64,000 nucleotides of DNA from Candidatus Nomurabacteria bacterium (GCA_963842815.1 CAWJHU010000001.1:94497-158496); one strand, 5' to 3'; positions 7,171 through 24,602 are shown, numbered from the stretch's first letter. Numbers and translations: made by a program. The notes: generated by a model from the letters alone, not told the origin.

Positions 7171-7190
7171 AGCCCTCTCGGTCGGGTCTG
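7171..7190. repeat. Left copy of a direct repeat (AGCCCTCTCGGTCGGGTCTG); putative attL-side boundary of the integrated element
   Basis: Shares the exact GC-rich core CCTCTCGGTCGG plus TCT with 24502-24520, which sits next to the 3' end of tRNA-Arg(TCT); a GC-rich 12-mer is unlikely by chance in this AT-rich DNA. Confidence 0.5.
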
Positions 7191-7294
7191 AAATAGACAC
7201 AATGCACACTATAAAAAAGAGGTGCGTTTTGAAATGCCAACAAATGCCAATAAAATGAACTTTTGAAGATTCCTAAATATGATAGAATCAATTT

Positions 7295-7912
7295 ATGCAG
7301 AAAGATCAAAAACAAAAAATAACGGTCTCTCGTCACCTAAAAGCCATGAAGCTATATTCTGGTGTAAAAAAGATCCAAGATAATTTCTTAAAAGAGATAA
7401 AGAAAAGGTACACGGACTCAATTAAAAAAGAAATAAAGAATCTATTTAAGAAAGTAAATCCTAATAAGGAAGATTTAGAATTTTTCGGTAGACATCTTAA
7501 AGGAGCAGTATTTCCAGATACAAAAAATATAATAATTCAAATAACAAACGATGCTATTCAAAATGAAATAATAAGAAAGTATTCTGAAAGTAATAAAATA
7601 ACAATTTATCTTTCTAAAAGTGGCGACTTGTATTTAGAACCGAAAGATGAACACTGCTATAAAATGGAAAAGGGCTCTATCCGTCATCAAATTATCTTGA
7701 CTCTAAAAGATAAAGATAATCCATATTCAACACAAGAAATAATGAATGATTCCGAGGCAAAAAACACCAGAGCTATCAGAGATGCAATTGGTCATATAAA
7801 TAAAAACGCTGATAAATTCCTTTCAATTCACAATACAGAAACAAGGAGGCTTATTGTAAACAAAAGTGACGGCTATCAGATTAATAATCTATACTGTATT
7901 TTCGAAAAGTAG
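7295..7912 (+). CDS. Hypothetical protein (Lys-rich, no recognisable domain)
   Basis: 205-aa ORF and the first gene inside the putative island; no motif recognised. Confidence 0.4.
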   Translation: MQKDQKQKITVSRHLKAMKLYSGVKKIQDNFLKEIKKRYTDSIKKEIKNLFKKVNPNKEDLEFFGRHLKGAVFPDTKNIIIQITNDAIQNEIIRKYSESNKITIYLSKSGDLYLEPKDEHCYKMEKGSIRHQIILTLKDKDNPYSTQEIMNDSEAKNTRAIRDAIGHINKNADKFLSIHNTETRRLIVNKSDGYQINNLYCIFEK

Positions 7913-8027
7913 CACATGCCGTCTCGGTGACGTGTTAATAATTCTTAAAAAAACCTTTAAATAAGGTGTTTTTTTGATTTAAGTGGTTAGACAACGTATA
8001 GGAGTGTCGTGGTAATTTTTATTAATA

Positions 8028-9422
8028 GTGGTTGTCCCCACTTTTAATGTTTTAAAAAAAATTATGAATACTAAATTTGTAACAAAAACAAAACTTGTTT
8101 GGACAATGACCAAGCGGAAAGTTAAAGATATTCTCCCAGCTTCGTATAATCCGAAAACCATGACAGAGAATGAACGTCGAGATCTTGAAGATTCAATCAA
8201 GGAATTTGGAACTGCTGTGCCTGTGGTTTTAAATATTGGAAGTCGAAACAATTTTCTGATAAATGGCCACCAGCGTCTAATTATTTATGCTGATCTTGGC
8301 ATCGACGAAATTGACGTCATGGTTCCCAGTCGAGAATTAAGCGAAAAAGAAGAGATGACGTTAAATTTAAGATTGTCAAAAAATTTAGGTTCATGGGATG
8401 AAACAAAACTTAAAGACCTAGATATGAACCTACTTCTTGAGGTGGGTTTCGGAGACGATGAATTACAGAATCTATTCGATAACGTAGATGTGATTGATGA
8501 TGAGTTTGATGTTGGAAAAGCCATCCGAGAAACAAAGATAGCTAGAGTAAAACCAGGAGAAATTTGGGAACTGGGAGATCATAAATTACTTGTGGGAGAT
8601 TCAACTTCGCCGGAGCAAGTGCAAAAATTGATGGCCAACGAATTAGCTGATGTCATTTATTGTGATGGACCCTACAATATAGGGTTAAGCTATTCTGACG
8701 GAATTGGCACTAAAGGAAAATACGGAGGAGAATATGGCAGCCATACAAGAAGAGATGAGGCGAAAGATTTTCCAGATTTGAAATTCAAAAATATGAAAAT
8801 GTCGGACAGTAAAACGGTGCAGAAATATACCGAATTCATGGACAGCTCCATAAAAAATGCCATCAGTGTAGCTAAACCAAATTGTCATATATTTTATTGG
8901 TGCGATGAAAAATATATTTGGCTAATTCAAACATTATATGCTCAAAATAAAATTGAGAATAAGCGAGTTTGTTTGTGGATAAAAAATAATCAAAATTGTA
9001 CTCCGCAGGTAGCATTCAACAAAGCATATGAACCATGCGTTTACGGAGTTATTGGAAAACCGCATCTCAATAAAAATATCAAAAATGCTAATGAAATGTT
9101 AAATCAAGAAATTGGCAGCGGCAACCAGGTGCATGAAGAAATCATAGACATGCTAAATATTTGGCTAGAAAAAAGAGATAACGCTCAAGACTATGAGCAT
9201 CCAACCCAAAAACCGGTGACCCTAAATGAAAAGCCATTGAAAAGATGCAGTGCTCCAGGGCATATTGTGTTTTCTGGATTTGCCGGTGGTGGCAGTGATT
9301 TAATCGCCTGCGAACAACTTGGTAGAAAATGGCGAGGGGTTGAGATTGATTTGATTTTCGCTACGGTTTGTATCGACCGTTGGGAAAAATTTACCAACAA
9401 AACAGCGAAACTAATATCATGA
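8028..9422 (+). CDS. ParB-like nuclease domain fused to a DNA methyltransferase (N6-adenine/N4-cytosine, PF01555-type)
   Basis: N-terminal NPKTMTENERRDLEDSIKEFGTAVPVVLNIG...FLINGHQRL is a ParB/Srx fold; then DVIYCDGPYNIG (DPPY-like motif IV) and HPTQKPVTL. The true start may be an internal Met (around 8064 or 8106). Confidence 0.8.
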   Translation: MVVPTFNVLKKIMNTKFVTKTKLVWTMTKRKVKDILPASYNPKTMTENERRDLEDSIKEFGTAVPVVLNIGSRNNFLINGHQRLIIYADLGIDEIDVMVPSRELSEKEEMTLNLRLSKNLGSWDETKLKDLDMNLLLEVGFGDDELQNLFDNVDVIDDEFDVGKAIRETKIARVKPGEIWELGDHKLLVGDSTSPEQVQKLMANELADVIYCDGPYNIGLSYSDGIGTKGKYGGEYGSHTRRDEAKDFPDLKFKNMKMSDSKTVQKYTEFMDSSIKNAISVAKPNCHIFYWCDEKYIWLIQTLYAQNKIENKRVCLWIKNNQNCTPQVAFNKAYEPCVYGVIGKPHLNKNIKNANEMLNQEIGSGNQVHEEIIDMLNIWLEKRDNAQDYEHPTQKPVTLNEKPLKRCSAPGHIVFSGFAGGGSDLIACEQLGRKWRGVEIDLIFATVCIDRWEKFTNKTAKLIS

Positions 9423-10183
9423 ATATTCAACAAGGAGACATTTATAAATTAGGTGAACATATTATTGCTTGTGGTGACTCACTGGATGCTTCTTTCGTTA
9501 ACCAAGTGATTGGCGACAAAAAGATCAGAGCCATAATTTCTGATCCACCTTACGGAGTTGCATATGTCGAAGGCAAGAAGGCCTTCAATAAATTAGGGGT
9601 GGATAGCGACAAAGTGATCATTGGGGATCAGCTTCAATCTGACGGAGAATACGCCAAATTCAATCAAGTATGGCTTGAAGCAGTAAAACCATACCTTGAG
9701 TCATATAACGCCTGCTATATCTTTAACGGCGACATGATGTATCCTGCCCTACGGGTTGGAATGCAAGAAGCCGGATTCTACTATAGCCAAATGATTATAT
9801 GGCTTAAAAACCATGTGGTGCTGGGACGGAAAGATTATCTGCCAATGTTTGAACTCATCGCTTACGGCTGGCATGGTAGACATAAAATGGAAAGGTCTAA
9901 AGCCAAGAGTGTGATTTTTTATCCCAAACCAAATGCCTCAAAATTACACCCTACTCAAAAACCTGTCGGACTACTCCGTAAACTGATACCAAACTCCACA
10001 AAAATAAACGAATACATTTATGATCCGTTTCTTGGAAGTGGAAGTACTGCTGTTGCCTGTGAGCATCTCGGTCGAAGATGTATTGGCATCGACCTTGATC
10101 CAGAATATGTTATAACGGCAATCACTCGTCTGGAAAAACTAACTGGTAAAACAGCAGAAAAAGTATGGTCGGTGAAAGCATAG
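9419..10183 (+). CDS. DNA methyltransferase (N6A/N4C, PF01555-type), translationally coupled to the upstream fusion gene
   Basis: IISDPPYGV (DPPY) and HPTQKPVGLLRKLI motifs; ATG at 9419 overlaps the upstream TGA (ATGA). The tracked ORF starts earlier at 9368. Confidence 0.8.
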   Translation: MNIQQGDIYKLGEHIIACGDSLDASFVNQVIGDKKIRAIISDPPYGVAYVEGKKAFNKLGVDSDKVIIGDQLQSDGEYAKFNQVWLEAVKPYLESYNACYIFNGDMMYPALRVGMQEAGFYYSQMIIWLKNHVVLGRKDYLPMFELIAYGWHGRHKMERSKAKSVIFYPKPNASKLHPTQKPVGLLRKLIPNSTKINEYIYDPFLGSGSTAVACEHLGRRCIGIDLDPEYVITAITRLEKLTGKTAEKVWSVKA

Positions 10184-10554
10184 ACAATAGAAGATCAGGA
10201 GTCTATAAAAAACAGGATTTTGATTCCTATGTTCTTTGGAAATCCTTACCCTCGGTGTTAAGAGGCCAACCAAGACAAATGCTTGAAAAATTTGGAATCG
10301 ATGATGAGATGGCAATTAGTTTACTGGAAATCAAAACCCAAGCTGAATTTGCCAAACGATTTGATATTAAGGATCCGGCCACACTAACAGACTGGAATAA
10401 AAGAATAGAAAAAGATGGATTGGTTCCCAGTATAAATGAATGGGCTCGAAAATTAACACCAAATGTCCTTCTCTCTTTGTATAAAGCTATTGCAAAAAAC
10501 GGCAAAGCATCAGAAGTAAAAGCTTGGTATCAGATTGTCGAGGGAATTATATAA
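10165..10554 (+). CDS. Hypothetical protein
   Basis: 129-aa ORF overlapping the methyltransferase stop, co-directional with it; no motif recognised. Confidence 0.4.
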   Translation: MVGESIDNRRSGVYKKQDFDSYVLWKSLPSVLRGQPRQMLEKFGIDDEMAISLLEIKTQAEFAKRFDIKDPATLTDWNKRIEKDGLVPSINEWARKLTPNVLLSLYKAIAKNGKASEVKAWYQIVEGII

Positions 10555-10765
10555 AAATATGGAAAATCAAAATACAAAAATGAGTACAGAAGAAATGGCA
10601 AAACTTCTTTCTCAAACCATGAGAGATGTGGTGGCAAGAAAGATTACCCTACGTCATGCCTTGGCAGTTTCTCGTATTGCCACTTCTTTAGCCAGAGTAA
10701 TTGAAATTACAGACTTAAATAAGAGGATTGAATTTTTAGAACAAGTTTTAAAAAAGAGAAAATAA
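10535..10765 (+). CDS. Hypothetical small helical protein
   Basis: 76-aa ORF; overlapping start and stop codons with its neighbours suggest an operon. Confidence 0.35.
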   Translation: MSRELYKNMENQNTKMSTEEMAKLLSQTMRDVVARKITLRHALAVSRIATSLARVIEITDLNKRIEFLEQVLKKRK

Positions 10766-10766
10766 T

Positions 10767-11528
10767 ATGAGAAAATTTGTTAATCTATTTGAAAAAGGAA
10801 ATTTAACCCCCAGAGAACGGTATCTGATGTTGATGCAAAATAACTTCACTAAAGTAATCACTGGTGAAGAATCTTTAACTGTAGCCGATAAAGGTGCTTT
10901 AGAAAGCTGGAAACCAAAAAATAATAGAGAGGTGGATGAATGGAATAAATATGGCGAGGGTGATCTACTGATTAGTAATGCTGGTTTGGAAGTAGAAATT
11001 TTATATTTACAAGCCAAGGCAGAATATTTCAGGAAATTTTCTCTGGATATGCAATTAAGTTTCTATCCTTCTAATCAAAGAATTGAAAATATTTTAGAAG
11101 AATTAGAGATAATAAAAGTTGGAAATGTTAAAGATGACATATTAATACTAAAAACAATTTTCAAATCAATGCAGTTTATCAAGAAAATTGAAGAAAATGG
11201 CGAAACTATTTTGGACTTTACTGAGACAGCAAAAATCATTTTCAAAGAAACACGAGAAAACCTTATTGATTACTATTCTAAATTATTGGCTTTTCAAAAA
11301 ATATTTAAAAGGTTGTCAATAGTTTACGAAGTGGATATGCTTTATTTTATTAATGATCACATAAAAGATGTTACCCGTTTTATAGAAGGCAACAACGACG
11401 CCTTAAACAGGGCAGTTTTGAAGATGAAAGATAATTTACTTATAGACAAAGACAGTATCTTGCCAGATACCGAAACATTGGAAATCTGGACTAAAAAATT
11501 TACTGAGATTTTGGGCGATGAATTTTAG
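10767..11528 (+). CDS. Hypothetical protein
   Basis: 253-aa ORF; its start abuts the stop of the upstream ORF. Confidence 0.4.
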   Translation: MRKFVNLFEKGNLTPRERYLMLMQNNFTKVITGEESLTVADKGALESWKPKNNREVDEWNKYGEGDLLISNAGLEVEILYLQAKAEYFRKFSLDMQLSFYPSNQRIENILEELEIIKVGNVKDDILILKTIFKSMQFIKKIEENGETILDFTETAKIIFKETRENLIDYYSKLLAFQKIFKRLSIVYEVDMLYFINDHIKDVTRFIEGNNDALNRAVLKMKDNLLIDKDSILPDTETLEIWTKKFTEILGDEF

Positions 11529-11539
11529 GGAAAATACTT

Positions 11540-12073
11540 TTATTTAGCGTGAGAAATAAAGTTTATGTTTGCTCCCCAAAAGTGCTTGAAGTCGATACTG
11601 CATTTACTCATTTGCGGATTGTTTGTCATCATAACTTTAAATGGAGACGTCTGCCCGGGCATAATCGGATTATAGTCGATTAAAGAATCCGAAGAATTTA
11701 CAAATTCTCCGGTTTTAGTATATGCAGTGCCCAATGCTTCTACATCCTTTAATGATTGACCGCTGATATTTTTCACTTGCCCAACGATTTGGAAATAATC
11801 ATATTCTTCGTAACACCTATAACTAAGCAATTCTAGCTGTGGTTCATTATTAGCGACGGAGTTTGTTGTCGATTGAGAACTACTAGAACCCACTGGTACG
11901 TTGCTTGAACTACTATTGATCACAATAATGAGAAATACAAAAATAATAATCCCGGCCGTTATCTTTTTACCTTTTGTCCAAACATACATTTTCCCCTGGC
12001 AATGAGGACACCTAGTTGCCATTAAATCTACTTCCTTTTTACAATGCTTGCACAGTTTATTTTTTTCTTCCAT
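11540..12073 (-). CDS. Zinc-ribbon membrane protein (N-terminal CxxC...CxxC, one TM helix, extracytoplasmic C-terminus)
   Basis: CKHCKKEVDLMATRCPHCQGKMY, then the hydrophobic segment IIIFVFLIIVI, then a Ser-rich linker. Confidence 0.4.
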   Translation of the reverse strand: MEEKNKLCKHCKKEVDLMATRCPHCQGKMYVWTKGKKITAGIIIFVFLIIVINSSSSNVPVGSSSSQSTTNSVANNEPQLELLSYRCYEEYDYFQIVGQVKNISGQSLKDVEALGTAYTKTGEFVNSSDSLIDYNPIMPGQTSPFKVMMTNNPQMSKCSIDFKHFWGANINFISHAK

Positions 12074-12189
12074 AAAATTATTTTTTAATTGATAATATTC
12101 GACGACCCACCATCCTAGCTTAGATTGATTGATTTGTGTAGCGGAGTTACCAACAGGTCAAAATATCAAGCACTTTAAGTATTTTTGGG

Positions 12190-13143
12190 CTATTTGTTGT
12201 ATTCATAGCTTTGTTTAATAAGCCCCATAACTTTATCTATGTCCTCTTTTCTTTCAAGTTTTACCTCGTAGTCGCCATTACCCCAATGGCCGATTACTTT
12301 AGGTTTTGTTAGATTACGGGCCATGCCAGCTGGATTATCTAGTTCTCCACTTGGCACATTTAAGAAAATTTTCAGCAAATCGTGCAGAATAACTATGTCG
12401 CAAAAATTAGTGGTTAATTTATAGGCAATATATTTTGATTTAGGTTCTTCGATGATTGATTCATCTAAAGCTGATATCCTCTCTTTAAGGACTGCAAATA
12501 TTTCCTTAACATTAATGTTGGCAGATTTAAGGTGATCATCAATGGTATATTGTATTTTTTCCTTGAATACACTTTTTTGTTTTTCTCCTTTTCCAAAAAT
12601 TTCAGAGGTGGAAATTTTCACTTTGCGTTGGTTCTCTGATTCCACCAGCAGGATATTATTCTCATAGAGCCGGTAATGAAGAAGCTCAATATTCATAGGC
12701 AGTAAATCAGCTGTATCTAAATCGAATTTGTTATAACTTTCCGCAACACAGATTACTCGAGGTGACGCCCAATCAATCTCTATATTAATATTCGCTTTAT
12801 GTACTAATGCCTCAAAAGCATCTTTGTGATCCAACAGCCAACGTAAATATGATAGTCCTTGATTGATGACGTTCTCGTTCTGAGATAATTTATATTCAAT
12901 GATAACCGGTGAGCCGTTGTTATCAATTCCCACCGTATCCATTCTCCCACCGAAGCTAGTTGAATATTCAGTTGCTAAAAATGTAATGTTCAATATCTCG
13001 TCAAGATTTTTCTCGAAGATTTTTTGAATATCCTTTTCAAGACCAACTTTAACGATTGGGATCTTTTTTGCTTTTTCGTTTTGGGTAAAAAATAACGCCA
13101 TGTGTTTATTCCTGGCGTGAGGTTTAAACACTAAACCCCGCAC
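12190..13143 (-). CDS. NucS/DUF91-like PD-(D/E)xK nuclease-domain protein (paralog of 13916..15007)
   Basis: GRMDTVGIDNNGSPVIIEYK...NVINQGLSYLRW shows a D...ExK motif followed by a QxxxY motif, as in NucS/RecB-family nucleases. Confidence 0.5.
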   Translation of the reverse strand: MRGLVFKPHARNKHMALFFTQNEKAKKIPIVKVGLEKDIQKIFEKNLDEILNITFLATEYSTSFGGRMDTVGIDNNGSPVIIEYKLSQNENVINQGLSYLRWLLDHKDAFEALVHKANINIEIDWASPRVICVAESYNKFDLDTADLLPMNIELLHYRLYENNILLVESENQRKVKISTSEIFGKGEKQKSVFKEKIQYTIDDHLKSANINVKEIFAVLKERISALDESIIEEPKSKYIAYKLTTNFCDIVILHDLLKIFLNVPSGELDNPAGMARNLTKPKVIGHWGNGDYEVKLERKEDIDKVMGLIKQSYEYNK

Positions 13144-13273
13144 CAGCTAGGTCTTGCGACCCCATACCAGTTTCCCGATACGGCCCTTGGAAGAGTTGCT
13201 GAACGCGGGGTTCAGTATCTTCCAAGGGTCTTTGGATCATGCCGTAAACTACTTCACGGTTTAGATCACTCAT
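13121..13273 (-). CDS. Possible small ORF (50 aa) upstream of 12190..13143
   Basis: Minus-strand ATG at 13271-13273 gives MSDLNREVVYGMIQRPLEDTEPRVQQLFQGPYRETGMGSQDLAGAGFSV; it overlaps a GC-rich nested hairpin (13184-13228). It may be non-coding. Confidence 0.2.
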
Positions 13274-13375: not shown

Positions 13376-13897
13376 ATGATTCTTCCACTAGAACTAACAC
13401 CCTCAGACATAATGACTGTACCTTTACCATCTGGAAATACAGTGGACTTGCCTGTTTGTCACCCTACTTTTTCAAGCTGGTCAGAAAAATTGCCAAACTT
13501 TGATTTTGGAAAGAAACCTATCGTGAATTATAAAGGAAAAGGTGTTTTTGCTGAACTTGCTATTTTAGGATTACTTATTGACTCGGGATGGAATGGCATT
13601 TGGGTGGAAACATATGGAGGTATTCACTTTCTAAAAGATATGCCGACTAGTTGGAAATTATCACAACATAATATATCTATAACATTAGACAAAGAAACTT
13701 TACTTAAAAATATTTGGAAAACCGGAAAAACCACAGCTTGTTTTGATGTTTTCGCGTGGAAAGATAATGACATTCTTTTTTGTGAAGGAAAGCATAAAGG
13801 TAAAGATAGATTAACTAAAGCACAAACTAAATTTATTGAAGGAGCGTTGGCTTGTGGAGTACCAATACAATCTTTAGTGATTGTTGAATGGAACTAA
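13376..13897 (+). CDS. VRR-NUC-like PD-(D/E)xK nuclease (putative)
   Basis: C-terminal FDVFAWKDNDILFCEGKHKGKDRLTKAQTKFIEGALACGVPIQSLVIVEW fits the VRR-NUC pattern (D...ExK, Lys, conserved Gln, then G-hydrophobic). Confidence 0.45.
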   Translation: MILPLELTPSDIMTVPLPSGNTVDLPVCHPTFSSWSEKLPNFDFGKKPIVNYKGKGVFAELAILGLLIDSGWNGIWVETYGGIHFLKDMPTSWKLSQHNISITLDKETLLKNIWKTGKTTACFDVFAWKDNDILFCEGKHKGKDRLTKAQTKFIEGALACGVPIQSLVIVEWN

Positions 13898-13915
13898 AAA
13901 GATTTTGTTGTTCTT

Positions 13916-16444: not shown

Positions 16445-18356
16445 CTTTAAAGATAATCTCTCTCTTTTCTTGTTCGCTGAATGTCTTTATTTTTACTTTT
16501 TTAATTTCAAATTTAGACACATCCAAGTCTGAAAGATTTTTATACTCTCTTTGAATTCTTGCTGACATTGCTGGTATCTCAATATCGAGTTTCTCAATAT
16601 CTTTTTTAGGATTATCTTTATCAACCTCAATAACCATCGGAGTAATTGGTTTTGCTCCAGTACCCATTAATCTCTTTTCAAGCAAAACTCCTTCACCCTT
16701 AATAGATTTAACAAAATCCATAAAAGCAGGTGTTCCTATAACACTTACATATTCTTCTACACTCTCATCGCCAAAATACATTCTTCTTAAACCTCTTCCA
16801 AGTGTTTGTTCTGGAAGAATCTTTGCATCAGATGTATATGGACGAAGTCCGACAATAGTCGTCACATTTTTTACATCCCAACCCTCTTTGAGCATCAAAA
16901 CAGAAACAATAACCTTAAAAGGACTTTCCCAACTATCTATTTCATTGGCTTGCTTTCTTAATATATCTAATTCTTCTTTACTCTTTCCAGTTACACTTTC
17001 TGAAATTTCACCGCTTTTATTAGTATGAATAGTTAAAACTGCATCTTTTAAATCAGAGAAACTACCTCTAATATATTCTGCCACATCATCACAATTCTTA
17101 GTATCGTCTGTCATGATAAAAAGAATAGATTTCTTTCCCGTTGGTTTTAGATATTCATATGTTTTTCTCCATTCTTCTACTCCTAAATTTATATAATCAC
17201 GATACTTCTCACTAAACAATGAGCTTTGATTCTCTTTTAATTTTCCACAACTTGCTTCGTCTGGCACAACAGGATTTTTAACAATTCTTTGATGTATGGC
17301 TTCAACTAAAGGATAGTCTGAAATTGTTTGCACAAAAATAGATCCATCATTCTTTTTTGGAGTAGCTGTCATATCTACTTGTAAAGCAAGTTTTGTGCCT
17401 TTACCTTTTAAACGATTGTGAATATCTTGGATAGACTTAAACCAAGCCATCTTTTCATCGTGAATATGGTGAGCTTCGTCGTTGATAATAATAAGCTCAT
17501 CAATATCACGAACAATCATTCCTAAATCAACTTTAGAATCATTTGTTTTTGCAACTGGTTTCTCTCCAAGAAAATACTCACTTGTATCTTCGTCTTCTGC
17601 ACTTGAAACAGAAACATCGCTTTCATAAACTCTGTGTATGTTTGTTAAAAAGATATTACCTGTATCTGAAACACTTTTTAATTCGTCCTGTAAGTGTAAT
17701 GTTATTTGAAAATCATCATTCCAATTTTGTCCTGCATAACCATTCTCTGGCAACACAGGATCATTATGGAATATTTTTAATCCTTCAAAATCATTCTTTA
17801 TTCTTTCGAAGACAATAACGTTGGGCGTTATCAAAAGAAAGTTTTTAGCCAACTTAGAATCTTCTTCATATTTCTTATGGAAATAGGCCCAAGCGATAAC
17901 TAAACTCATTACTTTTGTTTTACCTGCACCTGTTGCCATTTTAACCACAAAACGAAGCCAGTCTTCAGTAAACATATCTGCGCTTAATACTCCAGTAGAA
18001 TTGTATCTAAGTAAATCATATTTATCTTTTACCTTAGCAACTTCATAAAGCCAAATGATAGTTTCCATGGCTTCTCTTTGCGCAAAATAATATCGGAAAT
18101 TATAAAAAGAGCCATCTTTGTTATAGATAATATGTTCTTCTTTAAACCAGTAATTCAAAAGTGCCTTGGATGTATCACTAGCATCTTCGTATTTTTTATC
18201 TCTCCATTCTTTTACTTTCTTTCTAAGGTCAGCAACAAGAGGAGGAATAAGTTTATCAAATCCTTTTTCTCGCAGATCTTCGTCAGCAGGAAACCACCTA
18301 ATGCTAGGGTCTAAGATTGCGTATGGGTCTTTTGGAAAATTTTTATGCAGTGCCAT
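16317..18356 (-). CDS. res: Type III restriction enzyme Res, helicase (SF2) part
   Basis: VVKMATGAGKTKVM (Walker A) and IIINDEAHHI (DEAH box), with helicase C-terminal domain motifs; directly downstream of mod. Confidence 0.8.
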   Translation of the reverse strand: MALHKNFPKDPYAILDPSIRWFPADEDLREKGFDKLIPPLVADLRKKVKEWRDKKYEDASDTSKALLNYWFKEEHIIYNKDGSFYNFRYYFAQREAMETIIWLYEVAKVKDKYDLLRYNSTGVLSADMFTEDWLRFVVKMATGAGKTKVMSLVIAWAYFHKKYEEDSKLAKNFLLITPNVIVFERIKNDFEGLKIFHNDPVLPENGYAGQNWNDDFQITLHLQDELKSVSDTGNIFLTNIHRVYESDVSVSSAEDEDTSEYFLGEKPVAKTNDSKVDLGMIVRDIDELIIINDEAHHIHDEKMAWFKSIQDIHNRLKGKGTKLALQVDMTATPKKNDGSIFVQTISDYPLVEAIHQRIVKNPVVPDEASCGKLKENQSSLFSEKYRDYINLGVEEWRKTYEYLKPTGKKSILFIMTDDTKNCDDVAEYIRGSFSDLKDAVLTIHTNKSGEISESVTGKSKEELDILRKQANEIDSWESPFKVIVSVLMLKEGWDVKNVTTIVGLRPYTSDAKILPEQTLGRGLRRMYFGDESVEEYVSVIGTPAFMDFVKSIKGEGVLLEKRLMGTGAKPITPMVIEVDKDNPKKDIEKLDIEIPAMSARIQREYKNLSDLDVSKFEIKKVKIKTFSEQEKREIIFKDVVGRRIPSQDGTRWKYQCRLSKSGWILYASNYAGPSSFRLL

Positions 18357-18359
18357 ATA

Positions 18360-18992
18360 TTAGTATACTTTTTGGATAAGAGAAATAAATCTATCTAATT
18401 TTTCAATTAATTCATCAACTGATTCTTTTATTACAACATTTTTTGTATATGAAGCATTGGCACTATTCAGACTTTTAGGGTGAATTGTATTTCTTAAATG
18501 ATTTATATCATCAAGGTAAGTTTTCCAACTTTGATTTCTGAAAAAACCCGCTTTATTGAATATATCTAATAAATATCCCAATCCCGTATTTTTATTGCTT
18601 AGTTTTTCAGAAGCAATGACACTACATAAATCATTTTTCTTTTTTGCGTTTGTTCTGTGTTCAAACAAATCAAAAAGCAATCCTTCATATATGGAAGCAG
18701 ACAACTGACAAAGAACAAGTTTGTGTTGCCAACCAAAAGTAAGTCCTGGTTTTAGAAATTCATATACACTTCTATGATAATCTAAACACATTCTTAGTTC
18801 AGCGAGATTATTTCTTAATTCAAAATCTTTTACAAAAGAAAACATAGGACGATAATGACTACCTAAATTTTTACTTATTTTTCTACCATCAGATAATTTC
18901 ATTTTCCAATAGCAAAATCTATCTGGTAAAGATTGCAAATTATCGTGCACTGTCATAAAACAATCTTCGGTTGAATGTTCTACACTACTCAT
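18360..18992 (-). CDS. Hypothetical 210-aa protein inserted between mod and res
   Basis: Overlaps the mod stop by 4 nt and ends 4 nt before the res start; no recognisable domain. Confidence 0.45.
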   Translation of the reverse strand: MSSVEHSTEDCFMTVHDNLQSLPDRFCYWKMKLSDGRKISKNLGSHYRPMFSFVKDFELRNNLAELRMCLDYHRSVYEFLKPGLTFGWQHKLVLCQLSASIYEGLLFDLFEHRTNAKKKNDLCSVIASEKLSNKNTGLGYLLDIFNKAGFFRNQSWKTYLDDINHLRNTIHPKSLNSANASYTKNVVIKESVDELIEKLDRFISLIQKVY

Positions 18993-21112
18993 ATTTTCAC
19001 ATCAATTACTCTAGTAGTATCATTCCCGAAAATATCGACTACTTTTACAGCCACTTTATAAGTTCCCTTAGGTAATTCTTTTGGAGTAGAAACTAATTCA
19101 AGATTTCTTTTCTTCTTGGTTCTAAATTCTTGCCATTCATTGTCAAAAACATAATCGCCAGTCCAAACTTCTTTCTCTTTGCCATCCTCAATAACTTTTA
19201 CAATTTCTTGTCTACTAGAAAAATCATAATCAACTGCCCAATAATCAATCCAATCACTCCATTTTTTAGTCAAAGTTTCTCTTTCCACAAGTTCAGTTTT
19301 CTTATCTTTACTTATCTTTATTACTTGACCATTTTCAACAACAACCTTTGAGCTTCCAGCCTTCAATCCCTCCTCTATTTCTCCAGTATTGTCTTGATTA
19401 TAGAAAACAGAGAAATCTGTTAACTCAATAGAAAGCTCTTTGTTATTTCCTTTACCTTTGATAATTGGCTTTATTTCAATAAACGCAACATCGTAGAATT
19501 TTACTTGTCCTTTTTCTACAGCTCTTTTATCAAACACTTCTCTAGGAATTATTTTGAAGGCAATATCAATTCCTTCATCTTTATATTCCTGGAAATCCAA
19601 ACCCATTTCGTAATCAAAACCAAGCACATCAATTTTGGTAATGCTCTTTTCTTTGCACTCTTTAACTATATCTTTTACTAACTCATGAGAAACAGGAGTA
19701 TTTATTGGACCAACGGCAATCAACCGATCTCTTTTCTTCCCAACAATATTTACAAATGATTCTACTGGTTCAGCTTTATAGGCAGAAATAATTAATTTAA
19801 TAAATTCTCTTTCTTTTCTTTCAGCTTGTTTAGCTTTTTGTTCTGCCCTTAAATCATTATTTAATTCAAGAAAACTTTCTCTTTCATATTTACCAACATT
19901 TAGGATTTCAAAAGCTCTAAAATTCTTACCTTCTTTTTTAAGTTCTCTTTGAACTCCAATAAGTCTCTTCCTTGAGGTATGAGTAGCAAATTTACCTAAA
20001 TCAGATCCAATCCACTTTCTATTGAGTTTTTCAGCAACAGCCATAGTTGTTCCAGAACCACAGAAAAAATCAGCAATTAAATCACCTTCGTTTGAAGATG
20101 CATTTATAATTCTCTCTAATAATTTTTCAGTTTTTTGTGTTGGATAACCTAATCTTTCCTGAGAAGTAGAAATCTGTTGAAACGACATAATATCACTCCA
20201 AACATCCCCAATTGCTTTACCTTTAGCAAGAGTTTCATCTAAATATCTTTTTTCTCCACGACCACCAAAATATCTTCTACCATCTTCATCAATTTTATCA
20301 AATCTATCTATATATTCTTTTCTATGTTCAGTTGATAATTTATTAAAAATAAAAGAATCTTTATTTTTTGAATAAAAAAGAATAGTATCGTGACCCCTTA
20401 TCCAATTTCTTGCAATACTCTTGTATCCACTTAAAACACTTATATCCCAAATTATTTCTCTTTGGAAATTATCTGCCCCAAAAAGCTCATCTAAAACTAA
20501 GCGAATATGGCTATTTACCCTGTGGTCACAATGAACATAAATACTTCCATCTTCTGCAAGTAAATCATACATCAATCTTAACCGTTCATAAATCATGGAA
20601 ATAAAACTATTTGCTCCATTACCCCAAGTATCACGAAAAGCAACCTCTTCTATTACTGAAGGTTTTTTAGTAAAACTTTCCTCTTCCTCACCATCACCAA
20701 TTTTTATATCCATAGAAAAATCTGCCCCAACATCAAAAGGTGGATCAATGTAAACAAGTTTAAGTCCTCCTTGTGCTTCTATCTCTTTTCTAAGTGGTCC
20801 GTTTTTAAGAGAAGAAAGGATAAGCTTGTTATCGCCCCAAATAAGTTTATTAGTCCAGCCAGTTACTTGTCTTCCAGACATATCAAAAAGAGAATCCTGT
20901 AATCCAATTTTATCTTCTCCTCTAGGCTCATCAATTTGTTCAATAGTTTGAAAAGGTAAAACGGTAGTCGTTACGTCATTTGTTTTACCATTCCAAACAA
21001 GCTCTACTTCTCTGTCATCCTTGAATAGCAAAAACCGATATTTATCTGGTAATGACTTACCAGCTTCTAAGAATTTTACTATATCTCGTTTTTCATTGTC
21101 AGATAGTTGCAT
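18989..21112 (-). CDS. mod: Type III R-M Mod subunit (beta-class N6-adenine DNA methyltransferase) with a C-terminal extension of about 250 aa
   Basis: KLVYIDPPFDVGADFS (motif IV, DPPF), then GYPTQKTEKLLERII and FFCGSGTTMAVAEKLNRKWIGSD (motif I); the IV-to-I order marks the beta class. Confidence 0.8.
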   Translation of the reverse strand: MQLSDNEKRDIVKFLEAGKSLPDKYRFLLFKDDREVELVWNGKTNDVTTTVLPFQTIEQIDEPRGEDKIGLQDSLFDMSGRQVTGWTNKLIWGDNKLILSSLKNGPLRKEIEAQGGLKLVYIDPPFDVGADFSMDIKIGDGEEEESFTKKPSVIEEVAFRDTWGNGANSFISMIYERLRLMYDLLAEDGSIYVHCDHRVNSHIRLVLDELFGADNFQREIIWDISVLSGYKSIARNWIRGHDTILFYSKNKDSFIFNKLSTEHRKEYIDRFDKIDEDGRRYFGGRGEKRYLDETLAKGKAIGDVWSDIMSFQQISTSQERLGYPTQKTEKLLERIINASSNEGDLIADFFCGSGTTMAVAEKLNRKWIGSDLGKFATHTSRKRLIGVQRELKKEGKNFRAFEILNVGKYERESFLELNNDLRAEQKAKQAERKEREFIKLIISAYKAEPVESFVNIVGKKRDRLIAVGPINTPVSHELVKDIVKECKEKSITKIDVLGFDYEMGLDFQEYKDEGIDIAFKIIPREVFDKRAVEKGQVKFYDVAFIEIKPIIKGKGNNKELSIELTDFSVFYNQDNTGEIEEGLKAGSSKVVVENGQVIKISKDKKTELVERETLTKKWSDWIDYWAVDYDFSSRQEIVKVIEDGKEKEVWTGDYVFDNEWQEFRTKKKRNLELVSTPKELPKGTYKVAVKVVDIFGNDTTRVIDVKI

Positions 21113-21116
21113 ATAA

Positions 21117-21512
21117 TTATCTAGAACTTGGTGGAGATCTTTTTATAAACATTGGACGATAATTGGGGTCAATTTGTACACTTTTATTTTTACATAAAGG
21201 GCAATCAAAAAAGGCAGGATTTCCACACGGTTGCATTCTTATGGTCTTTTTATTATCATCCCAACAACTAGAACAAAGTGGACCATCTTTCTTGCCATCC
21301 TTAATAATCCAGTATGCATTATTCTCGTAAGCTAGGCTCTCTTTCGTTTCTAATTTTTCTTTTAAAACTCGATTTTCTGTATCTAGCTCAGAAATTTTAT
21401 TCTGCATTTCTAAGAGTTTTTCCTGTATACCCAAAATTTGCTCATATTGTGGGATTTTGTCTGCTTCTCTAAGAGTTCCTGCTATGGATTTTAGTTCGTC
21501 AAAAATTACCAT
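21117..21512 (-). CDS. Hypothetical coiled-coil protein with a C-terminal 4-Cys zinc ribbon; first gene of the mod operon
   Basis: LEMQNKISELDTENRVLKEKLE coiled coil, then CSSCWDD...CGNPAFFDCPLCKN; its stop lies 4 nt before the mod start. Confidence 0.4.
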   Translation of the reverse strand: MVIFDELKSIAGTLREADKIPQYEQILGIQEKLLEMQNKISELDTENRVLKEKLETKESLAYENNAYWIIKDGKKDGPLCSSCWDDNKKTIRMQPCGNPAFFDCPLCKNKSVQIDPNYRPMFIKRSPPSSR

Positions 21513-21636
21513 AATATTTTTATCCTAGCACTTTTTGACCTAAAAATAAAGGAGTTTTTGATGAAATTAGTTACCAACATTTTACCAACTTACCCCTCCT
21601 AGACTCTCAGGCGGGGTTGCGTCATTCCTTAGGTAT

Positions 21637-22956
21637 ATGAATACATCACAAATGCCAGTTGGAGCTATGGCGAGAGAAATACAAGCCCCAGTAAAGGTGA
21701 AATATTGCCTTTATGCTAGAAAATCTACGGAAAGTGAGGAGGCTCAAATACTTTCCATAGATAGCCAGATTAAAGAAATGTTACAGATGGCGGAACGCGA
21801 TCACCTTGAGGTAATAGAAATAAAAAAAGAATCACACTCGGCGAAGGAAGCCGGACAGCGGCCAGTTTTTAATGAAATTGTTGATGAGATCAAACAAAAG
21901 AAATTCAATGGAATCCTAACATGGAACGCAGATCGTATTTCCAGAAACGCTGGAGATCTTGGAAGAATTGTAGACTTGATGGACGCAGGAATATTACACG
22001 AGATACGTACCTTTGGGCAGAAATTTTCAAACAGTCCGAATGAGAAATTTCTGCTGATGATTTTAGGGTCACAAGCTAAATTAGAGAATGATAACAAAGT
22101 AGTAAATGTTAAAAGAGGACTCCGAGCAAGATGTGAAATGGGTCTCTGGCCATGCACTGCCCCGACTGGATATCTCAGCAGTAAAAACACCGACAAACGA
22201 TGTCATGTTGAAATTGACCCACATCGGGCGCCGATTATCAAAAAAATGTTTGAGAAAGTGGCATATGAAAAATGTAGCGGGCGAAGATTGCACGCATGGT
22301 TAAAAGATGAAATGAAATTTAAGACTAGGAACGGAAAAATTTTCAGCATCAGCAATATTTACATAACTCTCAGAAATACTTTCTACTACGGCAGTTTTGA
22401 ATATCCAAAGGGTGGCGGGCAATGGTACACCGGCAAGCATACGCCAATAATTTCTAAAGAATTATTTGATAAGGTACAAGAACAAATGATGGAGTACACA
22501 AGGAATAGTGAACACAAAGAATTTGCCTTTACTAAATTAATGACCTGCGGACTGTGTGGATCGGGCATAACGGCTGATGAGAAATTCAAAAAACAAAACA
22601 ATGGAAATGTGCATCGGTATGTTTACTACGGATGTTGCAGATTCCAGGACAAAAATTGTAAATCGGGTTACATGCGAGAAGAAGATTTGATTGAGCAACT
22701 TGCAGGACTGATGGATGAAATTGACCTTGATGAGATCGGGATGAAGCAGAAGATTAAAGACGAAATTGAGCGACATAAGAGATTCAATATAGGCATACTC
22801 GGACTAAAAGAAGCAACCGTCAAAGTTGCAGATGTTGATATACGAAATTATGCTAAACATGTTCTGCGAGGTGGTAGCCTGGAAGAGAAACGAGAATTGC
22901 TGACTTGTTTAAGAAGTAAAGTGGTTATGAATAATAAAGAAGTAAGAATTAGTTAA
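21637..22956 (+). CDS. Large serine recombinase (resolvase/invertase catalytic domain, recombinase domain and zinc ribbon)
   Basis: YCLYARKSTESEEAQILSIDSQ carries the catalytic Ser; also LTWNADRISRN and C-terminal CGLCGSGITADEKF...CCRFQDKNCKSGYMREEDLIEQ (zinc ribbon plus coiled coil). Confidence 0.85.
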   Translation: MNTSQMPVGAMAREIQAPVKVKYCLYARKSTESEEAQILSIDSQIKEMLQMAERDHLEVIEIKKESHSAKEAGQRPVFNEIVDEIKQKKFNGILTWNADRISRNAGDLGRIVDLMDAGILHEIRTFGQKFSNSPNEKFLLMILGSQAKLENDNKVVNVKRGLRARCEMGLWPCTAPTGYLSSKNTDKRCHVEIDPHRAPIIKKMFEKVAYEKCSGRRLHAWLKDEMKFKTRNGKIFSISNIYITLRNTFYYGSFEYPKGGGQWYTGKHTPIISKELFDKVQEQMMEYTRNSEHKEFAFTKLMTCGLCGSGITADEKFKKQNNGNVHRYVYYGCCRFQDKNCKSGYMREEDLIEQLAGLMDEIDLDEIGMKQKIKDEIERHKRFNIGILGLKEATVKVADVDIRNYAKHVLRGGSLEEKRELLTCLRSKVVMNNKEVRIS

Positions 22957-22972
22957 AAGTATCTGGGCTTTT

Positions 22973-24472
22973 TTGTCATTCCTGCTACAATGCGCTAATA
23001 ACCTGATGAAAATACAAGATGTAAAAATTGGAAGAAACGACCCTTGTCCATGCGGCGAACTTAAACCAGATGGAAAGCCAAAGAAGTATAAAAACTGTTG
23101 CTTAAATAAGGAAACGCCTAATAAAAAGAAAATGGTTAAAATGACGATTAGTAGAAGAGATTTCATATCTGGACCATATAAACAGTGCCCAAAATGCCTA
23201 AGGAAGAGCTCATTTGGGGTCTTTATACCAACCTCTGGTACACATAGCTATTCTAGAGAGTGTGTTGAGTGCGGACACAAACAAGGATACCCATTGCCGA
23301 AAATAAAAAAGAAGATTTTATATTTAGATCAATTTGTAATAAGCAATTTAATTAAATTTCTGGATAAAGATCACCCAAGTCACGAAAAAATTAAAAAGGA
23401 TCCTTTTTGGAAAGAATTATTTATAAAACTGGAAGCTGCTTCAAAATCACAAGCAATCGTTTGCCCGGACAGTTTTTATCACCGAGACGAATCGCTTGTC
23501 GGATCCACTGATTTTAAACTAATGAAAAGACTCTATGAGCATTTTTCAAGCGGAAAAACTCTTCATTCTGGTAACGAGATACAACGAATGCAAATTTATG
23601 AACACTTTGAGAAGTGGTTGCAGGGACAAAAGGCAAAATTTAATTCTGATCCAAAATATATATCTTCAGAAGATTTAGACACTTGGTCGGTAGGATTGCA
23701 TATAACAGTAAATATGCGCCCATTCCCCGGAGAAGTAGATAACCTTCGAGCTACAAACACTAGCACAAGAGAACAACTAAAGAATATATGGTCTATGTGG
23801 CAATCAGAAAAAGATTTCAAATTTACAAATAAAGTAAAAGAAGAAACTCTAGGATTGGGGAAAGGGCTGATAAGCGTAGCTCAAAAATTCCAGCAGAAAA
23901 GAGCTGACGCAATGAAAAAAATGGAATCTGGTGAAGACTATACTCTTGATCTTAACGATATTTTACCACCTGAATCTAACGGAATTCTTGATGATTTATT
24001 AAGACTTTCCAGAACGCATGGTATTTCTGAAGAAAATCTCTTAGGTACTATTATAAAATACTTCAACGATGTTGATGCCCTTTTAGAAATACCTAAAATC
24101 CGTATAAGCTCAGTGATGTTTGCGGGTTTAGCCAGAAGAGCCCAAATGGGTAAGAAAGAACCCCCAAAATCTTTTACGGATGTTGAGTTCATATCAAGCT
24201 ATTTACCATACTGTGATGCAATGTTTGTAGATATAGAATCCGCAACGATTTTAAAAGAACCTCCCAAAGAAATACCATTAAACTTAAAACTAAAAGAATT
24301 CCCAGCAAAAATATTTTCGCTAAATCAAAAGAAAGAATTTTTAGATTACCTTGACCAACTAGTTAAAAAAATTCCAGCGGAGCAAATGGAAATTTTGAAA
24401 GACGTAACCGGCGACAACCATGACAAGCCCTATTGGGATATTATTGAACACGAAAAGAGAGAAAGAGACTAA
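22973..24472 (+). CDS. SEC-C motif / zinc-ribbon protein (499 aa), function unknown
   Basis: GRNDPCPCGELKPDGKPKKYKNCC is a SEC-C metal-binding motif; a second CxxC...CxxC ribbon follows. The start may be the internal Met at 23006. Confidence 0.5.
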   Translation: MSFLLQCANNLMKIQDVKIGRNDPCPCGELKPDGKPKKYKNCCLNKETPNKKKMVKMTISRRDFISGPYKQCPKCLRKSSFGVFIPTSGTHSYSRECVECGHKQGYPLPKIKKKILYLDQFVISNLIKFLDKDHPSHEKIKKDPFWKELFIKLEAASKSQAIVCPDSFYHRDESLVGSTDFKLMKRLYEHFSSGKTLHSGNEIQRMQIYEHFEKWLQGQKAKFNSDPKYISSEDLDTWSVGLHITVNMRPFPGEVDNLRATNTSTREQLKNIWSMWQSEKDFKFTNKVKEETLGLGKGLISVAQKFQQKRADAMKKMESGEDYTLDLNDILPPESNGILDDLLRLSRTHGISEENLLGTIIKYFNDVDALLEIPKIRISSVMFAGLARRAQMGKKEPPKSFTDVEFISSYLPYCDAMFVDIESATILKEPPKEIPLNLKLKEFPAKIFSLNQKKEFLDYLDQLVKKIPAEQMEILKDVTGDNHDKPYWDIIEHEKRERD

Positions 24473-24501
24473 TTCTTTTTTTACAATTAAAAAACACTTT
24501 T

Positions 24502-24520
24502 AAGCCTCTCGGTCGGTCTC
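24502..24520. repeat. Right copy of the direct repeat (AAGCCTCTCGGTCGGTCTC), 10 nt from the tRNA-Arg 3' end; putative attR side
   Basis: See 7171-7190. Confidence 0.5.
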
Positions 24521-24601: not shown

Positions 24602-24602
24602 C

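What the first reader, a model, noticed from the sequence alone, without database searches (positions are those of the whole stretch)
7171..24520. About 17.3-kb island bounded by GC-rich direct repeats, next to tRNA-Arg(TCT)/tRNA-Val, with a large serine recombinase at the tRNA end
AGCCCTCTCGGTCGGGTCTG (7171-7190) and AAGCCTCTCGGTCGGTCTC (24502-24520) share an exact 12-mer; the right copy lies 10 nt from the tRNA 3' end. Large serine recombinases usually leave only a 2-bp crossover, so a 12-19-nt direct repeat is notable: either the element duplicated part of its attB, or a different integrase created the junctions. Everything between the repeats is accessory (methyltransferases, R-M, nucleases, recombinase, SEC-C protein).
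Basis: seen in the sequence. Interest (0 to 1): 0.6.

Follow-up and report, generated by a model that had tools for sequence, protein, structure and literature searches.

The report
Serine-recombinase defence island at a tRNA gene

Summary
The exact 12-mer CCTCTCGGTCGG occurs only at 7174 and 24505 (0.0012 occurrences expected per 64 kb). The tRNAs, the large serine recombinase (LSR) and the accessory cargo are all present.

The interpretation needs correcting. I collected 139 distinct related LSR loci from Patescibacteria genomes and metagenomes.
- In all 80 loci that have a tRNA downstream of the LSR, that tRNA is convergent, with its 3' end facing the LSR.
- The ~27 nt next to the tRNA, which contain the right repeat copy, are element DNA. 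They are identical in elements sitting at different tRNAs.
- The left repeat copy lies 78 nt inside a ~125-nt non-coding block. That block is conserved at the left end of ≥29 elements whose left flanks are unrelated.
- Conservation jumps from 27% to 68% exactly at 7093.

So the island runs from ~7093 to ~24532. The shared junction core is short: GTGC across the family and TGTGCCCC here. It corresponds to the extreme 3' end of the tRNA, which fits LSR chemistry.

It keeps a constant offset and co-varies between LSR clades, so it is probably a protein-binding site.

Cargo: a Type III restriction-modification system, candidate defence genes PDC-S11 and PDC-S18, and two methyltransferases. No empty site or excised circle was found. 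tRNA targeting by serine integrases is rarely documented.

The parts
7093..7100 (+). Left junction core TGTGCCCC. It is identical to 24528-24535, the tRNA-Arg 3' terminus plus 1 nt. It is the first base of sequence conserved among related elements.
   Evidence: Pairwise identity among 15 left ends is 0.26-0.28 in the 40 nt to the left and 0.68 from this position on.
7093..7217 (+). Conserved non-coding left-end block, the proposed P' side of attP. Its parts are: a tRNA-3'-end-like stretch (7093-7117), GTGAGAC..GTAAGGG (7124-7140), a TATATCA motif, motif copy c, and a tandem TAGACAC/GCACAC repeat (7194-7209).
   Evidence: An nhmmer profile finds it upstream of the LSR, on the same strand, in ≥29 loci. 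No Rfam match. No consensus RNA structure.
7171..7190 (+). It is internal to the element, 78 nt from the left boundary.
   Evidence: Relatives carry a direct repeat of the right-end arm at the same +76 to +100 offset, with clade-specific sequence.
7229..7256 (+). Promoter-like site (TTGAAA-16-TAAAAT) overlapping the tandem repeat AAATGCCAA x2. It is a possible operator/promoter for the first cargo gene.
   Evidence: consensus match only, not above chance in number. The same tandem repeat is seen in L144.
7295..7912 (+). Hypothetical 205-aa protein
   Evidence: no significant family match.
8064..9422 (+). ParB_N-domain + N6/N4 DNA methyltransferase
   Evidence: Homologues lie upstream of the LSR in about one third of the related loci.
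9419..10183 (+). N6/N4 DNA methyltransferase (Type II/orphan)
10165..12073 (.). Four small hypothetical genes: 10165-10554(+), 10559-10765(+), 10767-11528(+) and 11540-12073(-).
12190..13143 (-). DUF5655 protein, matching PADLOC candidate defence gene PDC-S18
   Evidence: E 2.6e-93. An 82% identical homologue sits in the L093 element.
13376..13897 (+). Hypothetical 173-aa protein
13916..15007 (-). DUF4268/NucS-like protein, matching PADLOC candidate defence gene PDC-S11
   Evidence: E 4.4e-95.
15163..16444 (-). DUF2726 protein (15163-15675) and a TnsA-like/restriction-type endonuclease (15665-16444)
16317..21112 (-). Type III restriction-modification module: Res helicase (16317-18356), a 210-aa hypothetical (18360-18992) and Mod methyltransferase (18989-21112).
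   Evidence: MTase_III E 2.5e-113; REase_III E 2.4e-16.
21117..21512 (-). Hypothetical 131-aa Cys-rich protein
21637..22956 (+). Large serine recombinase (439 aa), the integrase of the element
   Evidence: PF00239, PF07508, PF13408; SprA/YokA, TP901-1, A118 integrase; phrog_95 integrase; thousands of homologues; the top 120 are 73-93% identical.
22973..24472 (+). Hypothetical 499-aa protein with an N-terminal SEC-C-like CPCG..CC motif. It is cargo inserted between the LSR and the right end.
   Evidence: No homologue in the related loci.
24500..24528 (+). Right-end arm of the element, the proposed P side of attP: TTAAGCCTCTCGGTCGGTCTCAC + TAACGT.
   Evidence: It is identical in L093 at tRNA-Arg(GCG), in L105 at tRNA-Lys, and in L012/L096/L100 at tRNA-Arg(TCT). 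Identity falls from 0.7-0.9 to 0.3-0.4 beyond -30 nt.
24528..24535 (+). Right junction core TGTGCCCC, covering tRNA positions ~68-74
24529..24601 (-). tRNA-Arg(TCT), the integration target. It is intact.
   Evidence: Rfam 68 bits.
24603..24678 (-). tRNA-Val(TAC), a host gene. It is syntenic with the 101-aa gene and PilO/N/M in L012, L096, L098, L100 and L093.

Best explanation
Window ~7093-24532 is one integrative element of a large Patescibacteria-wide family. Its large serine recombinase (21637-22956) inserts a circular element immediately at the 3' boundary of a tRNA gene, here tRNA-Arg(TCT).

Proposed sites (inferred):
- attB is the T-rich trailer plus the tRNA 3' end.
- The crossover lies in the last few tRNA nucleotides. 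The shared core is GTGC across the family and TGTGCCCC here.
- The tRNA body stays host-derived and intact.
- attR (24500-24535) is the conserved right arm (TTAAGCCTCTCGGTCGGTCTCAC-TAACGT) joined to the tRNA.
- attL (from 7093) is the host flank joined to a conserved ~125-nt left block. The first ~25 nt of that block mimic a generic tRNA 3' end (GTGC..GG..TCG.A, in register).

In the excised circle they would lie within ~135 nt of the crossover.
- Because the pair keeps its position and changes sequence together from one recombinase clade to another, it is most likely a binding site for the recombinase or an element-encoded partner.
- It could be an accessory or architectural site, or an operator.

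The cargo is a defence island: a Type III restriction-modification system, PDC-S11, PDC-S18, two methyltransferases and nucleases.

Status of the steps:
- Shown: anatomy, family-wide tRNA linkage, conservation boundaries, co-variation of the motif pair.
- Inferred: the exact crossover dinucleotide, the binding function of the motifs, current mobility.
For: Recombinase and its tRNA linkage:
- The LSR domain set and its homology to solved serine integrases are established.
- Among 139 distinct related loci, the nearest downstream tRNA is on the opposite strand in 80 of 80 cases. Twenty of them lie within 200 nt of the LSR stop. Only 9 loci have a tRNA upstream.

Right end:
- In 16 distinct loci with LSR ≥83% identical, the 30 nt next to the tRNA are 69-92% identical. 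The next 40 nt are only 30-40% identical.
- The 6-nt spacer type TAACGT occurs next to Arg(TCT), Arg(GCG) and Lys(TTT), so it belongs to the element.
- All target tRNAs start with GTGC on this strand.

Left end:
- The block 7093-7217 recurs upstream of the LSR in ≥29 loci.
- The left flanks are unrelated: a host gene stop codon in L094, a terminator in L017, a tRNA-Lys in L030.
- Identity steps from 0.27 to 0.68 at 7093.

Junction core:
- The start of the block shares 3-11 nt with the 3' terminus of that element's own tRNA.
- GTGCCCC is kept even where the target is tRNA-Ile, tRNA-Val or tRNA-Leu, which share only GTGC. The crossover must therefore be at or outside GTGC.

Other support:
- Unoccupied tRNA-Arg(TCT) sites in L093 and L050 lack the motif.
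- Junctions of the form [right arm][core][left block] in L081, L060, L082 and L066, and remnants in L011 and L084, fit repeated integration at the regenerated site.
- The motif pair sits at a constant offset with clade-specific sequence: CCTCTCGGTCGG here, GCATCTCG(T/A)GC in L058/L087, GGGTCTCAGT.GG in L144.
- Only the LSR gene and the two ends are shared at DNA level with relatives. The cargo is mosaic.
- The cargo is made of defence genes.
Against: - No empty site and no circular junction was found for this element or any close relative. Integration is therefore inferred, not observed.
- The reconstructed attP shows no clear dyad symmetry around GTGC, unlike textbook LSR attP sites. The right arm and the start of the left block are direct repeats, not inverted ones.
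- One attB half-site would be non-conserved trailer DNA.
- The similarity of the left block to tRNA is not significant in a shuffle test.
- The left block is no closer to its own target tRNA than to other tRNAs (14.4 vs 13.5 of 26 positions).
- L011 and L084 carry displaced tRNA fragments of 21-23 nt, longer than the proposed core. This hints at deeper crossovers in some events, or at other elements.
- No recombination directionality factor was identified.
- In the closest host (L093) the tRNA pair is inverted and NDK is absent. The history of the left flank is therefore unresolved.
Confidence: 0.75

Rival explanations
1. The 12-19-nt GC-rich repeats are the recombination junctions (a common core or duplicated attB), so the element is 7171-24520.
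For: The exact 12-mer is highly non-random. It is the best local match between the two end regions. Some serine integrases do have common cores of about 8-12 bp (my own recollection, not checked here).
Against: The 78 nt to the left of the left copy (7093-7170) are conserved in ≥15-29 elements with unrelated flanks. Under this model that stretch would be host DNA. The 8 nt between the right copy and the tRNA are conserved across different target tRNAs. The two copies differ by two indels, whereas a crossover core should be identical. Unoccupied tRNA-Arg sites lack the motif.
Confidence: 0.07
2. A canonical palindromic LSR site. attP is the right arm (..GGTCTCAC) plus the inverted left motif (GTGAGAC..GTAAGGG, 7124-7146). 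The crossover is at TAA about 6 nt outside the tRNA (24523-24525 and 7120-7122), and 7093-7120 is host-derived attB arm.
For: GGTCTCAC and GTGAGAC form an inverted pair. TAA(C/G)GTG is shared at 24523-24529 and 7120-7126. By my reading of those sequences, the tRNA end and 7123-7144 match at 11 of 22 positions in register. This would give a textbook 46-bp imperfect palindrome.
Against: It requires 7093-7120 to be host DNA, yet that stretch is conserved in elements from different Patescibacteria classes and at different tRNAs. It is absent from unoccupied tRNA sites. The inverted match to the right arm is only 7 nt and is not above shuffles. Tandem junctions contain the core and the tRNA-like stretch between the right arm and the inverted motif.
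Confidence: 0.08
3. A nested or tandem history. The repeat copies are relics of the att sites of an older element, and the present structure is a composite of two insertions.
For: Arrays and remnants do occur in the family (L011, L084, L081, L060). A second, decayed recombinase sits at the neighbouring tRNA-Arg(GCG).
Against: The window holds only one left block and one LSR between 7093 and 24535. The motif pair keeps the same offset in many independent elements and co-varies with the clade. That would need the same nested history every time.
Confidence: 0.05
4. A static accretion island. The recombinase is a domesticated invertase or resolvase, or is inactive, and the genes accumulated next to a tRNA by other means.
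For: No excision product or empty site was seen. The tRNA pair is inverted in L093 relative to the window, so inversions do happen in this area.
Against: The LSR is intact and 90-96% identical to copies in hosts whose core proteins are only 52-80% identical. It sits at different tRNAs in related hosts (L093 versus the window). Both ends are conserved while the cargo is mosaic. This pattern indicates recent horizontal spread of an integration module.
Confidence: 0.05

Closest known systems
Phage/ICE-type large serine recombinases (SprA of SPbeta, A118/LI integrase, TP901-1, Bxb1, phiC31)
   Same: The same three-domain architecture (Resolvase, Recombinase, zinc ribbon), with detectable homology to the solved structures. 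The integrase gene lies at one end of the element, and the shared core at the junctions is short.
   Different: Those enzymes typically target protein-coding genes and use ~40-50-bp sites with dyad symmetry. Here the target is the 3' boundary of tRNA genes. One attB half would be unconserved trailer. The element ends carry several direct copies of a motif spread over ~135 nt. Sequence identity to characterised enzymes is low (E ~1e-6). The element has no phage or conjugation genes.
tRNA-anchored genomic islands of tyrosine integrases (Islander-type islands; tycheposons of Prochlorococcus)
   Same: Integration at a tRNA 3' end with the integrase next to the tRNA. There are tandem elements and degenerate remnants, and niche or defence cargo accumulates (preprint 10.1101/2020.12.28.424599).
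   Different: The recombinase family is different: serine, not tyrosine. The duplicated tRNA segment is only 4-11 nt, against the ~40-nt attachment sites (partial tRNA copies) described for those elements. Mageeney et al. 2020 (PMC7192596) found t(m)RNA use by 4.9% of serine integrases and called it previously unreported.
SCCmec-type elements (Ccr large serine recombinases at the 3' end of rlmH/orfX)
   Same: From general knowledge, not tested here: an LSR-driven cargo island at the 3' end of a conserved housekeeping gene, without its own transfer genes, and forming tandem composite arrays delimited by repeats.
   Different: The target is a protein-coding gene rather than a tRNA. The recombinase clade is unrelated, and the cargo and hosts differ.
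Serine resolvase res sites (Tn3/gamma-delta, Sin) with accessory binding sites
   Same: Several recombinase-binding motifs flank the crossover, some in direct orientation. This is a possible analogy for motif copies a, b, c and d.
   Different: Those are small serine recombinases carrying out resolution. No accessory sites are established for LSRs, and binding was not tested here.

Membership tests
Large serine recombinase (serine integrase) | N-terminal Resolvase catalytic domain with a serine nucleophile | tested here: met
   PF00239 at E 7e-17, residues 25-169. The YARKST motif is visible in the translation.
Large serine recombinase (serine integrase) | C-terminal Recombinase domain plus zinc-ribbon domain | tested here: met
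   PF07508 at E 4.8e-15 and PF13408 at E 1.1e-6. The protein aligns to SprA/YokA and the A118 integrase C-terminal domain.
Large serine recombinase (serine integrase) | Simple ~40-50-bp attP/attB with partial dyad symmetry and a 2-bp crossover | tested here: inconclusive
   The short shared core (GTGC; 8 nt here) fits. No clear dyad symmetry was found around it, and several direct motif copies are present.
Large serine recombinase (serine integrase) | A recombination directionality factor controlling excision | not testable with these tools
   No conserved accessory gene accompanies the LSR in the related loci. These factors are too diverse to recognise by sequence.
tRNA-targeting integrative genomic island | Element abuts the 3' end of an intact tRNA gene, with the integrase gene at that end | tested here: met
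   The tRNA is convergent in 80 of 80 family loci.
tRNA-targeting integrative genomic island | Distal end carries a direct repeat of the tRNA 3' segment | tested here: met
   TGTGCCCC at 7093 and 24528. The repeat is short, and the family range is 3-11 nt.
tRNA-targeting integrative genomic island | Empty site in a related genome, or an excised circular form | tested here: inconclusive
   No close relative exists in the collections (NDK next best 52%). L093 has an unoccupied tRNA-Arg(TCT), but the locus is rearranged. No circular contigs were found.
Defence island | Clustered known or candidate anti-phage genes | tested here: met
   Type III Mod/Res, PDC-S11, PDC-S18 and methyltransferases.
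Prophage | Capsid, terminase or tail genes | tested here: not met
   No structural PHROG or Pfam match inside the island. The LSR has only one weak relative in 2.9 million viral contigs.
Integrative conjugative or mobilizable element | Relaxase, coupling protein or type IV secretion genes, or an oriT | tested here: not met
   None among the island proteins. A T4SS-pilin-like gene exists, but outside the island at 33645-34625.

The most novel reading that the evidence does not exclude
This recombinase represents a large, recently spreading clade of serine integrases, found throughout Patescibacteria, that specialises in the 3' boundary of tRNA genes. Sub-clades are tuned to Arg, Lys, Leu, Val, Gln, Ser, Trp, Asp and other tRNAs. 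It uses an unusually extended, multi-motif attP: tRNA-end mimics plus co-evolving direct repeats that act as accessory sites. If so, it would be the first well-supported tRNA-targeting LSR family, and an LSR system with architectural sites.
Probability: 0.4. Interest if true: 0.7.

Novelty: new variant of a known kind. Interest (0 to 1): 0.55.

Why it matters
- Serine integrases are the main tools for inserting large DNA, and they are thought to avoid tRNA genes. The one survey I read (PMC7192596) found such use rare and unproven.
- A family with ≥139 distinct loci, all tRNA-linked, with clade-specific tRNA choice and conserved ends, gives a natural data set of matched recombinase/site pairs. 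It can be used to study how LSR specificity evolves.
- It also suggests how ultra-small Patescibacteria genomes acquire and exchange defence genes without phage or conjugation machinery.
- The co-varying sub-terminal motif pair hints at accessory sites, which have not been described for LSRs.

Tried and rejected
- Empty site via the left flank gene. The exact NDK protein is on only two contigs, both carrying the island. A genome-collection scan with NDK found nothing. The nearest NDK homologues are ≤52% identical and share no synteny or tRNA linkage.
- Exact look-up of the LSR protein: not on record.
- Small RNA in the left intergenic block: no Rfam match. RNAalifold on 29 blocks gave no consensus structure.
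- Hairpin idea. The two indels in the repeat (an extra C and an extra G) looked compensatory. I dropped this because the family alignment shows no conserved pairing.
- Left block as a tRNA remnant: local alignments to tRNA-Arg in either orientation do not exceed shuffles. Own-versus-other tRNA similarity is not distinguishable.
- Unweighted repeat search between the tRNA-proximal region and the upstream DNA. It gave clear hits in only 4 of about 50 loci, and the window's 12-mer did not exceed the controls.
- Circular contigs among 160 loci: none.
- Viral origin: one weak hit, uninformative.
- The window's own tRNA-Arg(GCG) as an empty site for the L093 element: rejected, because it is followed by a decayed recombinase.

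Full report
**Observation.**
- They share the exact 12-mer CCTCTCGGTCGG. It occurs nowhere else in the window, even with one mismatch.
- An order-1 Markov model of the window expects 0.0012 copies.
- ARAGORN and Rfam place tRNA-Arg(TCT) at 24529-24601(-) and tRNA-Val(TAC) at 24603-24678(-).
- The genes between the repeats are accessory:
  - a ParB_N-methyltransferase and a second methyltransferase;
  - DUF5655 and DUF4268 proteins, which match PADLOC candidates PDC-S18 and PDC-S11;
  - a DUF2726 protein and a TnsA-like nuclease;
  - a Type III Res/Mod pair;
  - a 439-aa large serine recombinase (LSR) with Resolvase, Recombinase and zinc-ribbon domains;
  - a 499-aa unknown protein.
- The flanks are housekeeping genes: NDK, a pseudouridine synthase and L19 on the left, and a 101-aa gene with PilO/N/M and RuvX on the right.
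- The host is a divergent member of Patescibacteria. Its NDK has no relative above 52% identity.

**Search for an empty site.**
- The NDK route failed. Only two contigs carry this NDK, and both carry the island.
- More distant NDK loci show no synteny.
- The closest host found later is L093 (PilM 80% identical). It has an unoccupied tRNA-Arg(TCT)/tRNA-Val pair, but the pair is inverted and lies between the 101-aa gene and the pseudouridine synthase gene, with no NDK.
- The proposed empty site 'NDK followed by tRNA-Arg' was therefore not found. The history of the left flank remains open.

**The recombinase family.**
- The LSR is far better conserved than the host. Thousands of homologues exist, and the top 120 are 73-93% identical.
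- Scans of species-representative genomes and of metagenomes gave 160 loci, 139 of them distinct. Nearly all are labelled Patescibacteria.
- In every one of the 80 distinct loci with a tRNA downstream of the LSR, the nearest such tRNA is on the opposite strand, with its 3' end facing the LSR.
  - Twenty lie within 200 nt of the LSR stop codon.
  - Upstream tRNAs are rare, in 9 loci.
- The target tRNA tracks the LSR clade: Arg(TCT/GCG/CCT/TCG) and Lys in the window's clade; Leu, Val, Gln, Ser, Trp and Asp elsewhere.
- At DNA level, only the LSR gene and the two ends are shared with close relatives. The cargo is mosaic.
- Only one weak relative occurs in 2.9 million viral contigs, and the island has no phage structural or conjugation genes.

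**Right end.**
- I compared 16 distinct loci whose LSR is ≥83% identical. The 30 nt next to the tRNA read (T/A)(T/A)TAAGCCTCTCGGTC(G/T)(G/A)TCTCAC plus a 6-nt spacer.
- These 30 nt are 69-92% identical. The next 40 nt are 30-40% identical.
- The window's 27 nt are identical in:
  - L093, at tRNA-Arg(GCG) in a closely related host;
  - L105, at tRNA-Lys;
  - L012, L096 and L100, at tRNA-Arg(TCT).
- Unoccupied tRNA-Arg(TCT) genes in L093 and L050 lack the motif.
- The right copy of the repeat and the spacer are therefore element DNA, and the junction lies at the tRNA terminus. All targets begin with GTGC on this strand.

**Left end.**
- Window 7093-7217 is a non-coding block that recurs upstream of the LSR, on the same strand, in ≥29 loci from all clades.
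- Its left flanks are unrelated: 13 nt after a host gene's stop codon in L094, a terminator in L017, a tRNA-Lys in L030.
- Across 15 left ends, pairwise identity is 0.26-0.28 in the 40 nt before position 7093 and 0.68 from 7093 on.
- The block begins with 3-11 nt identical to the 3' terminus of the element's own target tRNA. Here that is TGTGCCCC at 7093-7100 and 24528-24535, the only two copies in the window.
- GTGCCCC is retained in this clade even when the target is tRNA-Ile, tRNA-Val or tRNA-Leu, which share only GTGC. The crossover must therefore lie at or just outside GTGC, which is tRNA positions ~71-74.
- The island is thus about 7093-24532 (17.4 kb).

**What the repeat is.**
- In many elements, the arm next to the tRNA has a direct repeat in the left block at a constant +76 to +100 nt.
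- The repeated sequence differs by clade:
  - CCTCTCGGTCGG here;
  - GCATCTCG(T/A)GC in L058 and L087;
  - GGGTCTCAGT.GG in L144.
- Conserved position together with co-variation argues for function.
- The block has no Rfam match and no consensus RNA fold, so it is best read as a set of DNA motifs:
  - a tRNA-3'-end-like stretch, matching GTGC, GG and TCG.A in register at 12-18 of 26 positions;
  - an inverted GTGAGAC..GTAAGG motif;
  - the repeat copy;
  - clade-specific tandem 8-9-nt repeats.
- I infer that these are binding sites for the recombinase or for an element-encoded partner. That inference is untested.

**Arrays.**
- Several loci show [right arm][core][left block] inside chromosomes (L081, L060, L082, L066).
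- L011 and L084 keep remnants made of a right arm plus a 21-23-nt tRNA fragment.
- This looks like repeated integration at the regenerated target. It resembles tycheposon arrays and, from general knowledge, SCC composite islands.
- The longer fragments do not fit a single fixed crossover and remain unexplained.

**Weak points.**
- No excision product or pristine empty site was found.
- The reconstructed attP has no clear dyad symmetry around the core.
- One attB half would be unconserved trailer.
- A canonical palindromic model (right arm plus inverted left motif, crossover about 6 nt outside the tRNA) is attractive structurally. It requires 7093-7120 to be host DNA, which the comparative data contradict.

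**Literature.**
- Mageeney et al. 2020 (PMC7192596) reported t(m)RNA use by 14 of 297 serine integrases. They called it previously unreported and in need of proof.
- My searches found no description of tRNA-targeting LSR elements in Patescibacteria.

**Verdict.** The repeat is reinterpreted as a conserved sub-terminal motif pair, and the boundary moves to 7093. This is a new variant of a known kind: a serine-integrase island whose target is the 3' boundary of a tRNA gene and whose ends have an unusual architecture.

Noticed in passing
window 31283-32209 (-), next to tRNA-Arg(GCG) at 30605-30679 (+): A second serine recombinase, 27% identical to the island's LSR over 326 aa, broken into small ORFs. 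It is convergent with the tRNA, so it is probably a decayed element of a related kind at the neighbouring tRNA-Arg gene. A MazF/PemK toxin gene follows at 32910-33299.
   Followed up: partly
window 33462-33585 (+): Rfam match to LOOT RNA (RF03000) at 78 bits, above the gathering threshold of 46. A T4SS-pilin-like gene follows at 33645-34625.
   Followed up: no
L093 20292-20443 versus window 24529-24678: In the closest related host, the tRNA-Arg(TCT)/tRNA-Val pair is inverted relative to the pil operon. It abuts the pseudouridine synthase gene, with no NDK and no island. In that genome the same LSR element sits at tRNA-Arg(GCG) instead. Rearrangements between tRNA-Arg sites may be recombinase-mediated.
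   Followed up: partly
L011 13299-13370; L084 412-459: Extra copies of the element's right arm fused to a 21-23-nt tRNA 3' fragment, 130-150 nt before the real junction. They look like remnants of earlier integrations. The fragment is longer than the 4-11-nt core seen elsewhere.
   Followed up: partly
L028 6578-6653 and L136 6615-6690: ARAGORN calls a tRNA with anticodon TTA (it would read the UAA stop codon) overlapping the 3' end of the LSR gene in Yanofskybacteria contigs.
   Followed up: no
L118 30-386 and 6008-7335: tRNA-Gly(TCC) and tRNA-Pro(TGG) occur as inverted duplicates on either side of a 5.3-kb LSR element at tRNA-Arg(TCT). This is either an inverted duplication or an assembly artefact.
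   Followed up: no
window 6123-6968 (-): The NDK protein is 281 aa, with the kinase domain matched in two stretches and a long extension. Relatives with this form are ~300 aa and occur in Patescibacteria. The gene is absent from the corresponding position in L093.
   Followed up: partly
window 7234-7253: The tandem repeat AAATGCCAA-C-AAATGCCAA lies in the spacer of a promoter-like site (7229-7256) ahead of the first cargo gene. The same repeat occupies the tandem-repeat position of the left block in L144.
   Followed up: no
window 30680-30820 and L022 11252-11393: A GC-rich hairpin-rich stretch (..GCGGGACGCGCGAAGCGCGTCCC.., ..GGCGCGCTGGCGCGC..) follows tRNA-Arg(GCG) in the window. A nearly identical stretch follows tRNA-Val in L022. 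It is a conserved non-coding module of unknown role.
   Followed up: no
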